Assembly: GCA_963708135.1 (NCBI GenBank)
Contig: OY970192.1
Coordinates: 4,768,001 to 4,832,000 of the forward strand
Origin: an uncultured Gemmatimonadales bacterium
GTDB taxonomy: Bacteria; Gemmatimonadota; Gemmatimonadetes; Longimicrobiales; RSA9
Direction of reading: 5' to 3'
DNA: 64,000 bases
The position numbers are program-made. This document shows, piece by piece, positions 42,001 to 45,000 of the stretch (position 1 is the first letter of the stretch; every line of letters starts with the position of its first letter).

Positions 42001-45000
42001 CCGCGAGGGCGCCGGCGAGGCCGGTGGGCTCAAGCACTCGGGCCGAGCCCCCGCCACGCACGGCAACGCCCACGAGCGATTGGCTGGGCCATCGCTCCTC
42101 CGTCGGTCGGCAAGATTGGGATGGATTGTGGGAAAGACTCCGAGCTCATTCGGGGCCAGCAAAGAGCATAGCGGGAAGTCACGCGGGGGGCAACGCCGCC
42201 GTGGCCGGGCTATAGCATGGTCACGTGCCGCTACTCGCCGGCATGGCGCGGTCGTCCCCCTGGTCCACCAGGTATAATGCCGTCCCGATGATCGCGCCCG
42301 CCAACGCGTTCGCGAGCAGAACGCGAGGCAGCCCCAGCACGTCGAGGGCGACCGGCGTGTCCGCGAACCAGAGGACCAGGTAGAGAAGGCCCGTGCACGT
42401 GACGCTCGTGTATGCAACACCGCCGGCGAGGGACCTCCAGAAGCCCGACCCGTTCAGCACGAGGGCGGCGCTCGCGCCGACCGCCGCGAAGACCGTCACG
42501 TGCACGACGGTATATGCGAGGATTTCGAGGGGCAGGAGGAAGTAGGAGCCAAGCGACCCCGCTGCTCCCGAGCCGGCGCTCCCTCCACTGAACAACGCCG
42601 ACGCGAGCGCCGCCGGGACGGTGAGCGGGTGCAGAGCCAACGCTCCCTGCAGGAAGAACAGGGCCGCGACGGCGACGGCGCCGAGCAGCCCGCCGGCCGC
42701 CCCCGCCTGCACACGGTGCAGGTATCTCGTGACACTGCCGGGCCGGTTCGCGGCGGACGGCCGAACGCGATGTTCGTTCATGAGCCGGATCCTCCGTTCA
42801 TTGCAGTTTCGCCAGCGGAGCGAGCCGCCACCTGGCGACGTTCAATTGCTCGCGATGCTGAGGATCCCCGGGGGCGCTCGAGATGCCCGCAGACGCTACC
42901 GCCGCCGCTCAGCGCGAGGCTTCCGCGATGAGCTCGTCCTCAAACGTGAAGTCGAGGTCTCGCCCAGGCGCCTGGCTGGCGTACCACTCGGTCGTACGCC
43001 AGGTCGAAGACAGCGTCGAAGCGGCGGCCGGCGAGGGCGCGCTGCACGGACGGGGGATCGTTGCGGTCGGCCACGGCGTTCGGGATCAGGAAATCCAAGC
43101 GCTGTTTGCGGCTACTCTCGAAGGATGGGCCGTGTACGGAGAGCGGGGCAAGGGGCAAGGCCGCGCGGGGCGGGGAGGTCGGCGACGCTGCTCCCGGCGG
43201 AGGGATCGCGGGGGCGGCGGCACGCCAACGGCGGGACATTAACGGCGGCACATTAACGGCGGCACATTGACGGCGGCACATTGACGGCGGCACCACCTGC
43301 CAGCGGCGGCACCTCAACGGCGGCACGTTAACGGCGGCACGTTAACGGCGGCACGTTAACGGCGGCACATTAGGAGCGGCACCTCGACGGCGGTAATGAC
43401 GGGTGGGGGTGCGGGGCGGGAGGGATTGGCGCGGGGGGCTATCGCAATGCCCCGATCGTGCAGCGATCCTGGAGGATGAGCTTTGAGCGGCTACGGGTCT
43501 ACCAGGCGGCTGAGCGGCTGGACGCGGAGGTGCAGGCGTTGATCGCACGGCTTGCGCCGGGATTCAGCAGGGACGTCAACCAGCTTCGGCGGGCGGCGGG
43601 ATCCGTCCTTTACAACATCGCCGAGGCGTACGGCTCCGAGCAACCGGGCCGGAAGCGCAACCATCTCGAAATTGCACGCGGCTCCGTGGATGAGACCCGG
43701 GCGATCGTGCGCCGGCTGGCCGCCTCCGGCGCGTTCCCGCTCCGCGCGACGTTCCCGGCGACCGGCCTCGCCGTCACGATCGCGAAGATGCTCACGTCCT
43801 GGATCCGTACCCTCCCGCCCTGACCGCCCCGCCCCCCACCCCGCAGTTCCGCCGTTGTTGTGCCGCAGTTGCCTGTGCCGAAGTACATGTGCCGAAGTTC
43901 ATGTGCCGAAGTTCATGTGCCGCAGTCGAAGTGCCGCAGTCGAAGTGCCGCAGTCTGCCGTCCCCCCCGTCTTTTTGGCGACTTCCGGCAGGATCCGAGC
44001 TAATGGCCGGACCGGCTGAAGCGCTGGACGATCCGGGCGCCGCGGGCCTGGCTGATCTCGGGAGGCGTCAGGGTGACGCCAGGGACGGACATCCCGGGAT
44101 TCATCAGGTCGTGGATATCGCCCTGGTGCTCCAGCCCGAGGAGATGCCCGAATTCGTGCGCGAGGCCGTTGTCGTTGGCGGCGTCGCCGACCGCGCAGAC
44201 GCCCAGGCGCTCGACGGCCGCACCAGCTTCGCTGCCGACGAAGCGACGGACGAGCAGGAGGCTCACGGAATCGTGCATGGGAAAGCTCGCCGCCAGCATC
44301 AGGAACCCCTGGTCGTCGAGCGCCTCGGATCCATGCGGCGCCTCGGTGTGGTCGGTGGTGGTCCTGCGGACCTGGAACTCGATATCGGCAGCGCCGAAGA
44401 TCCGGTTCACTTCGTGGAGCGACTGCGTGAGGGCGGCCGGCGTACGGGTGGTCGAGATCTCGCGCGTGCGCATGACCCGCTCGTGCTGCACACGCGTTTG
44501 GCGGCCGACCTGCACGTTGCGCGCGACGATCTCCGGCGTGGAAACGGTCAGCGTAATGAAGTGAGCGTGAACGGGTATCACGACCATGTCTACCTCCATC
44601 TCGACATGTGGCGGCTCTTGCGCCTCGCTCACATCCCTTCGGCGAAGAGCTGCACGAGGTTAAGGATGGTGCATGCCGACTGGGCCAGCACGCGGGTGGA
44701 GATCCACTCCGAGGGCCCGTGGAAGTCAACGCCGCCCGCGAAGATGTTGGGCGTGGGCATGCCCATCTCGGTCAGCCGGGAGCCGTCCGTCCCCCCGCGG
44801 ATGGGCTCGAGCCTGGGGGTGATCCCCGCGGCACGCACCGCCTCCTCCAGCTTCCTGGTCACGTCGGGGTGGCGGCTCAGCACGTCGTACATGTTCCGGT
44901 ACTGCTTCGTGATCTCGACCTTCACGTCGAGGCGGGGCTCCTCGGCCATGAGCCCGGCGCACATGCGCTCCAGCCTGCGGCCCCGCTCCTCGAGGACCTT

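What a model noticed while it worked through the whole genome (the two positions that open the first line are those of the whole stretch)
43227..43954. Solo Avd-like (23S_rRNA_IVP) and GxxExxY genes sit inside hairpins built of complementary tandem repeats
The genome has 10 small stand-alone four-helix-bundle genes of the Avd/23S-rRNA-IVS-protein family (PF05635) and 2 PDDEXK_3 'GxxExxY' genes, but no reverse transcriptase. Each lies alone in an intergenic gap, and most are bracketed by a tandem-repeat array upstream and the reverse-complementary array downstream, with a different unit at every locus: g04077 (AACGGCGGCACATT)x10 | gene | (GTGCCGCAGTTGAT)x7.5 at 4811227-4811954; g02877 (TGGTTG/GGTTTT)x6 | (AACCCA)x14; g02357 TGCCCG | GGGCAG; g02790 TTCGCA | CGAAAG; g04418 GGGTGA | CCCTC-rich; g03327 and g04364 19-38-nt units. 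Each transcript would fold into a long repeat-built stem with the ORF in the loop, the layout of ORF-bearing intervening [...]
Evidence so far: TRF and flank test: arrays (>=3.5 copies, period 5-40) within 200 nt on both sides for 6 of 12 family genes vs 26 of 4565 others (odds ratio 175, Fisher p 6e-11); on at least one side 10 of 12 vs 554 of 4565. Flanks read directly. 7-mer complementarity of 300-nt flanks exceeds the maximum of 300 control genes (59) for g02357, g03327, g04364, g04418 (89-125). MFE folds of gene plus 220-nt flanks pair the two flanks by 87-149 base pairs for g02877, g03327, g04077, g04364, g04418, above all 24 size-matched controls (0-79); the other 7 give 24-61. tblastn finds the uncalled copy between arrays 1157251-1157398 and 1157808-1158094. 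No RVT Pfam row. The 4x15-nt GCGGCAC pattern: 65 matches here, 0 i [...]
(Added by a program. Inside this text positions count along the whole contig: contig position 4,768,001 is position 1 of the stretch shown here. "Call 12" and the like, gene names such as g00115 and contig names such as C1 are that model's own, and its searches are not shown. The text may have been shortened before it was handed on; [...] marks where a part breaks off. The agent that wrote the report below was given it as the finding of a first reader that could run no searches.)

Follow-up and report, generated by a model that had tools for sequence, protein, structure and literature searches.

The report
Small gene boxed in repeat-built arms
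A small four-helix-bundle gene sits between two mirror-image arrays of short repeats, one copy of a widespread and apparently undescribed selfish gene cassette related to the inserts cut out of ribosomal RNA, here in a bacterium that lacks the enzyme that cuts those inserts.

Summary
At window 43215-43954 a 115-aa PF05635/TIGR02436 gene lies between a 14-nt array (x10.9) and its partly complementary array (x7.5). The RNA fold has z = -7.3.

By my own flank test, 11 of 12 family genes in this genome exceed the 99th percentile of 3,379 control genes, and 6 exceed all controls.

The layout is general. It holds for 17 of 25 loci in related genomes and 33 of 69 loci from other phyla. Unit types track the protein lineage, and changes are mirrored in both arms.

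The "IVS-like transcript" reading is only partly supported:
- RNase III is not found in this genome or in 0 of 46 genomes of its class, against 14 of 15 elsewhere in the phylum.
- Arm mismatches show no G-U bias.
- Orientation relative to neighbouring genes is random.

In a Chlamydiae genome the same architecture is a TA-flanked, multi-copy IS5-family transposon, with 4HB-only and gene-less mini derivatives.

Best reading: an old, no longer mobile copy of a hairpin-ended DNA cassette. The arms are its terminal repeats, and its gene is still under purifying selection (dN/dS 0.22). The protein's role is unknown. I found no description in print.

The parts
43208..43214 (+). Outermost G-rich pairs of the predicted stem (partner 43964-43970)
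   Evidence: MFE structure of 43200-43970; sequence read
43215..43393 (+). Upstream arm: tandem array, unit CGGCGGCACATTAA (period 14, 10.9 copies; core GCGGCAC)
   Evidence: TRF; inverted-repeat pairs with the downstream array
43400..43424 (+). Inner G-rich arm, pairs with 43818-43845
   Evidence: the repeat finder I10 and I25, 71-85% complementary; fold
43476..43823 (+). Four-helix-bundle gene, 115 aa (an in-frame GTG at 43458 is an alternative start)
   Evidence: PF05635 54.3 bits, TIGR02436 54.3 bits. A profile of the 10 paralogs hits PDB 2gsc (E 9e-20) and 2rld, each deposited with 5 chains. dN/dS 0.22 against paralog A6.
43818..43845 (+). Inner C-rich arm, overlapping the last codons and the stop codon
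   Evidence: I10, I25
43846..43954 (+). Downstream arm: tandem array, unit CCGCAGTTGATGTG (period 14, 7.5 copies; core GTGCCGC/GTGCCGA)
   Evidence: TRF
43964..43970 (+). Outermost C-rich pairs of the predicted stem

Best explanation
The block at about 43208-43970 is one copy of a widespread selfish DNA cassette. It consists of a small four-helix-bundle gene (the S23p/Avd fold family) enclosed by terminal inverted repeats that are themselves made of short tandem units.

Gene and arms are inherited and duplicated as one unit (shown). The arms are the element's ends at the DNA level. They are kept mirror-symmetric by concerted change of both arms (mirror symmetry shown; mechanism inferred).

In one Chlamydiae lineage the same architecture is a working-type transposon (shown for that lineage). 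It has an IS5-family transposase plus the 4HB gene between ends made of a unique repeat followed by hexamer units. It is flanked by TA at many unrelated sites. It has 4HB-only and gene-less miniature derivatives.

The window copy is an old copy that no longer moves. This is inferred from three things: there are three paralogs at only 69-77% nucleotide identity, no matching transposase is in the genome, and the arms have expanded to 106-179 nt against about 32 nt elsewhere.

Its gene is still kept by selection (shown: dN/dS 0.22). So the protein does something for the element or the host, most plausibly binding nucleic acid as a pentamer (inferred from family structures only).

Any RNA made across the block would fold into a long stem like a ribosomal intervening sequence. 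Here that stem cannot be an RNase III substrate, because the enzyme is not found in this class. Classical ORF-bearing 23S IVSs are then the special case of such a cassette landing in an rRNA helix (inferred).
For: Specificity in this genome: 11 of 12 family genes exceed the 99th percentile of 3,379 controls, and 6 exceed all of them.

Unit inheritance: paralogs A8, A6 and the degraded copy at 1157 kb share the gene plus GCGGCAC arrays. The spacers differ between copies but stay complementary between arms. The degraded copy keeps its arms.

Generality:
- Relatives: 17 of 25 loci have an inverted-flank score above the 95th percentile of mismatched pairs, against 2 of 25 in direct orientation.
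- Other phyla: 33 of 69 against 3 of 69.
- Tandem arrays are found on both flanks in 33, on one flank in 31 and on neither in 5 of 69.
- None of the 20 loci tested lies in rRNA.

Mirrored odd units in both arms, for example CGTGTG/CACACG, CGTGAG/CTCACG, CGCGCG.

Unit period tracks the protein tree: 23 changes against 30.4 in shuffles, with 0 of 500 shuffles as low.

DNA-level mobility in genome G123:
- 16 of 16 copies have both ends.
- 15 of 16 are flanked TA...TA in otherwise unrelated flanks.
- Sizes are 526, about 1,100 and about 1,430 bp.
- The long copies carry an IS5-family transposase (NF033581, HTH_Tnp_4 + DDE_Tnp_4), and 2 of these are intact.
- The related genome G130 has 10 of 10 fetched mini elements of 135-188 bp, made of the two arms only, all TA-flanked.

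Patchy phyletic spread and 49-64% protein identity across phyla.

Against an RNase III role here.

Purifying selection on the gene.
Against: - No transposase of the G123 type in the window's genome: DDE_Tnp_4 gives 0. No Y1 transposase either.
- No TA flanks or target duplication are visible at the 11 own cassettes.
- No empty site was found. The neighbour set differs in the closest genome.
- The transposase association is confined to one Chlamydiae lineage: 17 of the 80 loci from other phyla, and none of the relatives' loci held. It could be a secondary capture.
- Only 5-6 of 26 other strong elements end in TA.
- Transposon ends are not normally rebuilt with a new unit in each lineage, yet unit type changed about 15 times among 35 rows of this phylum.
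- For GxxExxY genes the inverted excess is weak: 12 of 25 inverted against 8 of 25 direct.
- Transcription and protein function are untested.
Confidence: 0.55

Rival explanations
1. RNA-level IVS-type hairpin. The gene is transcribed together with both arms. The arms form a long stem, and the stem is what selection keeps: for processing, stabilising or insulating the transcript, as in 23S rRNA intervening sequences.
For: - The fold pairs the arms with z = -7.29.
- Homologous ORFs sit in real IVSs whose terminal repeats are cut by RNase III (PMC4990558, passages).
- Changes are mirrored in both arms.
- Arm length is about constant at 30-36 nt whatever the unit period, as expected for a stem-length constraint.
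- The downstream arm starts a median 16 nt after the stop codon.
- An inverted repeat folds whichever strand is transcribed, so random orientation is not fatal.
Against: - RNase III is not found in this genome, in 0 of 31 genomes of the order or in 0 of 46 of the class, though 14 of 15 genomes of other classes in the phylum have it. All 5 of 5 cassette-bearing genomes from other phyla have it.
- No sense-strand G-U excess among arm mismatches: 58 against 50, with 129 transversions, over 48 loci.
- Neighbour orientation is random: 40 against 31 upstream, 35 against 34 downstream (crude ORF calls).
- The gene-less TA-flanked minis and sharp element ends point to DNA.
- No promoter-like site upstream of the arm (the consensus may not apply in this phylum).
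Confidence: 0.22
2. The tandem units are periodic binding sites for the encoded protein. The pentameric ring binds its own arms, in RNA or DNA, for autoregulation or to mark the element's ends. Unit and protein co-evolve.
For: - Each protein lineage has its own unit flavour: CCCGTG-type hexamers in one clade, 7-8-nt AGTGCG-type units in another, GCGGCAC 14-15-mers in the A8 group, and CGCAGAGG-type units around GxxExxY genes.
- The hexamer arm stays 89% identical where the ORF is 64% identical and the spacer 41%. This comes from 8 loci that I picked for having that arm, so the figure is biased upward.
- Hexamer arrays peak at 5 units, 32 of 63. Solved family members were deposited with 5 chains.
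Against: - Copy number scales inversely with period while arm length stays about 32 nt. So length, not unit count, looks like the constraint.
- Sister proteins can have unrelated units, for example A5 and A7.
- No binding data exist.
Confidence: 0.12
3. Chance by-product. This genome is full of tandem arrays and array hairpins in its intergenic DNA, and small orphan genes simply sit among them.
For: The genome has 1,004 merged arrays and 73 adjacent complementary array pairs. Most of these have no family gene in the loop: 18 have loops under 100 nt, 35 have loops of 100-500 nt and 15 have loops of 500 nt or more. Arms lie mostly outside genes.
Against: - Controls: only 1% of 3,379 genes reach the scores that 11 of 12 family genes reach.
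- The same layout surrounds the family in genomes of other phyla that are not repeat-rich.
Confidence: 0.03
4. Remnant of a diversity-generating retroelement, with the gene being its Avd accessory protein.
For: PF05635 also covers Avd. A DGR review lists the family (PMC10053308, search listing only).
Against: No RVT_1 match anywhere in a 97.65%-complete single-contig genome. There are ten dispersed solo copies. No template/variable repeat pair was seen at the locus.
Confidence: 0.02

Closest known systems
ORF-bearing intervening sequences of 23S rRNA (Coxiella burnetii helix-45 IVS with S23p ORF; Leptospira and others), PMC4990558 (passages read)
   Same: Same protein family in the loop. Terminal inverted repeats form the enclosing stem. 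Tandem short repeats lie next to the ORF (GACAGAT x2-3 in Coxiella, varying between strains). Sporadic distribution suggests horizontal transfer. That paper quotes the older idea that IVSs are transposition remnants or mobile elements.
   Different: This copy is not in rRNA: it is intergenic, and the two 23S genes here are 3,002 and 3,004 nt with no large insert. The arms are long arrays of 106-179 nt rather than a 28-bp stem. The host has no detectable RNase III.
MITEs and their parent insertion sequences, e.g. Correia repeat enclosed elements of Neisseria (PMC2649163, abstract seen)
   Same: Terminal inverted repeats, intergenic location and gene-less multi-copy derivatives. The inverted repeats also form RNA hairpins: the abstract says the Correia element binds RNase III and is either cleaved or protected by it. 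TA flanks in the G123/G130 lineage.
   Different: These cassettes keep a conserved non-transposase gene. Their ends are built of tandem units that are rewritten between lineages. Most copies have no transposase at all.
IS5-family insertion sequences with DDE_Tnp_4 transposase (NCBIfam NF033581)
   Same: In genome G123 the full element is of this kind: an intact 304-aa transposase, terminal inverted repeats and TA flanks.
   Different: It carries the 4HB gene as a second gene and has hexamer arrays just inside both ends. The window's genome has no such transposase.
Avd of diversity-generating retroelements (PF05635)
   Same: Same Pfam family and four-helix-bundle fold class.
   Different: No reverse transcriptase and no template/variable repeats. 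The gene stands alone between inverted arrays.
REPIN/RAYT systems (PMC3116915, title and start of abstract seen)
   Same: A single gene flanked by the same hairpin-forming repeats that are scattered gene-less through the genome. Here GCGGCAC arrays form 39 clusters, some of them hairpins without an ORF, for example 2961588-2962181.
   Different: No Y1 (RAYT) transposase in the genome. The flanked gene is not a transposase.

Membership tests
PF05635 / TIGR02436 four-helix-bundle (S23p, Avd) protein family | Profile score above the curated cut-off over the whole domain | tested here: met
   54.3 bits against 33.8 (Pfam) and 54.3 against 24 (NCBIfam), residues 4-107 of 115. The paralog profile hits PDB 2gsc at E 9e-20.
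ORF-bearing 23S rRNA intervening sequence | [quoted passage not shown] | tested here: not met
   The locus is intergenic between protein genes. The own 23S genes lie at 1.59 and 2.60 Mb and are 3,002 and 3,004 nt for a 2,925-position model.
ORF-bearing 23S rRNA intervening sequence | Terminal inverted repeats that enclose the ORF in a stem-loop | tested here: met
ORF-bearing 23S rRNA intervening sequence | Excision of the stem-loop by RNase III | tested here: not met
   Cleavage itself is not testable here. The enzyme is not found in the genome (PF14622, PF00636, TIGR02191 and a motif scan) or in 0 of 46 genomes of the class.
Diversity-generating retroelement | Reverse transcriptase gene next to Avd, with template and variable repeats | tested here: not met
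   RVT_1: 0 matches in the genome
DNA transposon / MITE-type element | Terminal inverted repeats | tested here: met
DNA transposon / MITE-type element | Target-site duplication, and copies at unrelated sites | tested here: inconclusive
   Window genome: three diverged paralogs and no visible duplication. Relatives G123 and G130: 15 of 16 and 10 of 10 copies are TA-flanked at unrelated sites. Whether TA is a duplication or part of the ends is open, because no empty site was found.
DNA transposon / MITE-type element | A transposase, in cis or in trans | tested here: not met
   Own genome: DDE_Tnp_4 gives 0 and Y1_Tnp gives 0. Other transposase families were not searched against these ends. Met in G123.
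REPIN/RAYT | RAYT (Y1 transposase) gene flanked by the repeats | tested here: not met

The most novel reading that the evidence does not exclude
The S23p-type four-helix-bundle proteins and the GxxExxY nucleases are the end-recognising accessory proteins of a large, undescribed superfamily of hairpin-ended bacterial transposons. The tandem units in the arms are their periodic binding sites and co-evolve with them. The classical ORF-bearing intervening sequences of 23S rRNA are copies of these elements that landed in rRNA helices and are tolerated because RNase III cuts the stem. Solo copies such as this one persist, protein intact, even in a class that has lost RNase III.
Probability: 0.17. 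Interest if true: 0.85.

Novelty: new variant of a known kind. Interest (0 to 1): 0.68.

Why it matters
Two very common 'hypothetical' gene families are annotated in thousands of genomes without a function: the four-helix-bundle protein and the GxxExxY protein. The origin of ORF-bearing rRNA intervening sequences has been open since about 1990.

Showing that these genes travel inside repeat-built inverted arms gives a concrete, testable model for both. So does finding that in one lineage the package is a bona fide transposon with miniature derivatives.

The absence of RNase III in a whole class that still keeps the cassettes under selection separates the element's biology from RNase III processing.

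I found no description of the solo cassettes in print. Searches were made, and a 2024 MITE census, PMC11602168, searched for terms. Earlier notes of this scan report the same layout in at least 54 other genomes.

Tried and rejected
- Promoter and terminator consensus scan of 42700-44100: 0 and 0.
- My own promoter scan in other phyla: 3 of 33 spacers against 3 of 33 outside stretches, uninformative.
- Rfam: no family at E <= 1 in 42800-44100.
- PADLOC: nothing for the 4HB proteins. One weak Cas4-like hit (E 5.5e-4) for one GxxExxY protein.
- Empty site: the closest relative shares only the 421-aa gene downstream (87% nt) and has other neighbours. Flanks of the G123 element found no partner in 25 relatives.
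- G-U strand-bias test for an RNA stem: no bias.
- 'Five units for a pentamer': rejected as the main constraint, because arm length is constant and copy number is not.
- 'Loss of RNase III lets arms expand': rejected. Arrays in same-order relatives have a median of 31 nt (n = 39), like other phyla at 33 nt (n = 85). Only this genome is longer, at 45.5 nt (n = 18, p = 0.004).
- Octamer GAGTGGGG hairpins as gene-less copies of cassette A1: the arm polarity is opposite, so they are not simple deletion derivatives.
- The transposase as a general partner: tblastn finds it only in the G123 copies and one Simkaniaceae locus.
- Papers: Ralph and McClelland 1993 is not held, so what it says about copies outside rRNA was not seen.
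- The first attempt at search for related loci failed on a too-divergent alignment. A narrower alignment worked.
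Full report
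WHAT IS THERE

At window 43215-43393 lies a tandem array of a 14-nt unit, CGGCGGCACATTAA, with 10.9 copies by TRF. At 43849-43954 lies an array of CCGCAGTTGATGTG with 7.5 copies. Between them is an ORF at 43476-43823 (+) of 115 aa. It scores 54.3 bits on PF05635 (cut-off 33.8) and on TIGR02436, 'four helix bundle protein'.

The two arrays are 70-84% complementary in many registers. An inner G-rich/C-rich pair (43400-43424 with 43818-43845) reaches over the stop codon. As RNA, 43200-43970 folds with the arrays paired: -422.6 kcal/mol against -373.6 +/- 6.7 for shuffles, z = -7.29. No Rfam family matches.

The neighbours are on the other strand: a 186-aa ORF at 42221-42781, and a 210-aa ORF at 44000-44632 with a weak metalloprotease motif.

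THE GENOME-WIDE CLAIM

The genome is one contig of 5.446 Mb with 72% G+C.
- PF05635 matches 12 places. Ten are over the cut-off. Two are halves of one gene split by a ~1.3-kb insertion whose 389-aa ORF I did not classify.
- PF13366 matches two full GxxExxY genes and a fragment.
- No reverse transcriptase is found.
- TRF on each locus shows complementary units up- and downstream at most of them.

My own test used crude GC3-based gene calls as controls (n = 3,379; they cover 74.5% of the genome, so they are an incomplete set). The score was a local alignment of the upstream flank against the reverse complement of the downstream flank. Controls had median 24, 99th percentile 38 and maximum 71. 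Family genes scored 119, 103, 102, 97, 93 and 77 (above all controls), then 57, 43, 43, 41 and 39 (above the 99th percentile), and 24.

The one failure, A6, is a close paralog of the window gene (82% aa identity) whose upstream arm has been replaced.

GENE AND ARMS TRAVEL TOGETHER

The window copy, A6 and a frameshifted copy at 1157 kb align through the gene and both arrays. The GCGGCAC core is shared. The spacers between cores differ from copy to copy but remain complementary between the two arms of each copy. dN/dS between the window gene and A6 is 0.22, with dS 0.60. So the protein has been under purifying selection since the duplication.

GENERALITY

In 30 genomes of the same order, 20 have the family, with up to 8 copies, and many copies sit at contig ends. 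Of 28 loci fetched, 25 had usable flanks.
- 17 of 25 exceed the 95th percentile of mismatched flank pairs in inverted orientation, against 2 of 25 in direct orientation.
- Two of the 17 (and one of the 2) are from unpublished genomes G015 and G016. Without them the counts are 15 of 23 and 1 of 23.
- Almost all have short complementary arrays of period 6-8.

A scan of one genome per species with a five-sequence alignment returned 80 loci. They come from Chlamydiota, Verrucomicrobiota, Planctomycetota, Myxococcota, Acidobacteriota, Lentisphaerota and Gammaproteobacteria, at 49-64% protein identity.
- Of 69 with at least 250-nt flanks, 33 exceed the control in inverted orientation, against 3 in direct orientation. 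The misses include 15 near-identical copies of one genome whose left ends lay outside the 350-nt flank; see the Chlamydiae section below.
- Arrays lie on both flanks in 33, on one in 31 and on none in 5.
- None of the 20 tested loci lies in rRNA.

In this set one arm type recurs across phyla. About 32 nt of CGTGCC-type hexamers lie 15-260 nt before the ORF, and their exact mirror image follows right after the stop codon. Odd units are mirrored in place.

GxxExxY genes of the relatives carry their own flavour, CGCAGAGG/CGCGGAGG-type units. The inverted excess there is weaker: 12 of 25 against 8 of 25 direct.

On a FastTree of 103 proteins, the unit period changes 23 times, against 30.4 +/- 1.3 in shuffles (0 of 500 as low). 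Within this phylum alone it changes 15 times against 19.4 (4 of 500). So arms are inherited with the gene, yet are often rewritten.

Arm length is about constant:
- period 6: median 5.3 copies, 32 nt, n = 91
- period 7: 4.3 copies, 30 nt, n = 15
- period 8: 4.25 copies, 34 nt, n = 12
- period 12: 3.0 copies, 36 nt, n = 19

The arrays of this genome are longer: median 45.5 nt, up to 225 nt. This compares with 31 nt in relatives and 33 nt in other phyla.

RNA OR DNA?

Four results bear on this.

(i) RNase III, the enzyme that excises real IVSs (PMC4990558, passages), is not found in this genome. I searched with PF14622, PF00636, TIGR02191 and a signature-motif scan. It is not found in 0 of 31 genomes of the order. 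It is not found in 0 of 46 genomes of the class, while 14 of 15 genomes of the other classes of the phylum have it. So the search does work in this phylum. Five of five cassette-bearing genomes of other phyla have it. The family is nevertheless present in 17 of 61 sampled genomes of the class, with up to 13 copies.

(ii) Across 48 loci with strong arms, mismatched positions split as 58 G-U-compatible on the sense strand, 50 on the antisense strand and 129 transversions. There is no sign of sense-RNA wobble tolerance.

(iii) Neighbouring genes are co-oriented 40 against 31 upstream and 35 against 34 downstream (crude ORF calls).

(iv) Promoter scans were uninformative, and no RNA run is listed.

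A CHLAMYDIAE LINEAGE SHOWS THE ARCHITECTURE MOVING AS DNA

Sixteen copies in one genome (G123) are 95-100% identical. All 16 have the same two ends: a unique 24-nt terminal repeat followed by about five hexamers, mirrored at the other end. 15 of 16 are flanked by TA on both sides in otherwise unrelated DNA.

There are three sizes. The 526-bp form holds only the 4HB gene. The forms of about 1,100 and about 1,430 bp also hold an IS5-family transposase (HTH_Tnp_4 + DDE_Tnp_4, NF033581) between the left arm and the 4HB gene. That transposase is intact in two copies and decayed in the others.

A related genome (G130) has no such transposase. It does have mini elements of 135-188 bp made of the two arms and a short loop. 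All 10 of 10 fetched have both ends and TA flanks. Two of them keep the last ~60 nt of the 4HB gene.

This is the classical series: autonomous element, then internally deleted element, then MITE.

The caveat is that the transposase is seen only in this lineage (17 of the 80 far loci, and none of the relatives' loci). Only 5-6 of 26 other strong elements end in TA. The window's genome has no DDE_Tnp_4 or Y1 transposase and no visible duplication at its 11 cassettes.

THIS GENOME'S BACKGROUND

It has 1,004 merged arrays. There are 73 adjacent complementary array pairs, by a strict 7-mer criterion that misses the window locus itself. Only 5 of these enclose a family gene. 30 are of an octamer type, GAGTGGGG...CCCCACTC. 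The arms lie mostly outside genes, 18% inside against 75% for the genome as a whole.

GCGGCAC-type arrays occur in 39 clusters, and some form ORF-less hairpins. Similar arrays are matched in relative G001 (13 matches) and in unpublished G016.

So repeat-built hairpins without genes are common here. The controls show that the family genes are nevertheless exceptional.

READING

The best-supported account is a hairpin-ended DNA cassette of the IVS type, here old and immobile, with its gene still selected. The arms are ends that are kept mirror-symmetric. RNA folding is a consequence that matters where RNase III exists and in rRNA.

Shown:
- the layout, its specificity and its generality
- co-inheritance of gene and arms
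- purifying selection on the gene
- the absence of detectable RNase III
- transposon behaviour in one lineage

Inferred:
- that the window copy descends from such a transposon
- that the arms act in cis at the DNA level
- any role of the protein

EARLIER NOTES OF THIS SCAN

A word search returned 58 findings in at least 54 genomes. The eight shown describe the same layout and the same comparison with IVSs. They are unchecked AI notes and not independent evidence. My re-derive their main points from sequence.

Noticed in passing
G000 whole genome; relatives G001-G088: Canonical RNase III is not found in the window's genome or in 0 of 46 sampled genomes of its class. By contrast, 14 of 15 genomes of the other classes of the phylum have it. 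How this class matures its rRNA precursors is then an open question.
   Followed up: partly
G000:C1:539821-541444; 3231014-3234956; 4709493-4710796: There are higher-order tandem arrays whose units are themselves hairpins of octamer arrays (GAGTGGGG...CCCCACTC). Periods are about 234, 225/141 and 250 bp. 30 of the 73 complementary array pairs are of this octamer type. Their loops are only partly related to one another.
   Followed up: partly
G000:C1:2369145-2370787 (L010): One four-helix-bundle gene is split in two by a ~1.3-kb insertion carrying a 389-aa ORF. I did not classify the ORF with any tool; a transposase is my guess. The cassette's arms, GCAAGA x18 and GCGCTTGCCTCTT, are still in place on either side.
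   Followed up: no
G000:C1:212936-214311 and 445428-446553: Two other genes sit between unique complementary arrays. A 129-aa ORF lies between GATGCGG x7.1 and TCCCGCA x7.0. A 343-aa ORF lies between CCCCGAG x4.6 and GGGGCTC x5.1. Neither ORF was classified.
   Followed up: no
G000:C1:1833047-1835698; 3221053-3223703; 4286986-4289636; partial 3084550-3086146: Three full copies and one partial copy of a 2.4-kb element with two ORFs (523 and 250 aa). Its ends carry multiple 23-30-nt repeats in inverted orientation. It resembles a two-gene insertion sequence, but it was not classified.
   Followed up: no
G000:C1:1205768-1206337 (L012): The reading frame of the second GxxExxY gene runs on through the downstream array (GCCGGGTCA x9.4). 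This gives a 190-aa product with a (QPG)n tail.
   Followed up: no
L058:950-1200: In one Chlamydiae locus the whole upstream module (hexamer arm plus about 45 nt) is itself tandemly duplicated two to three times.
   Followed up: no
relatives G001-G030: PF05635 and PF13366 share their phyletic pattern among 30 relatives: both present in 17 genomes, only the first in 3, only the second in 1 and neither in 9. All six genomes of family f2 lack both. Related genomes are not independent, so no test was made.
   Followed up: no
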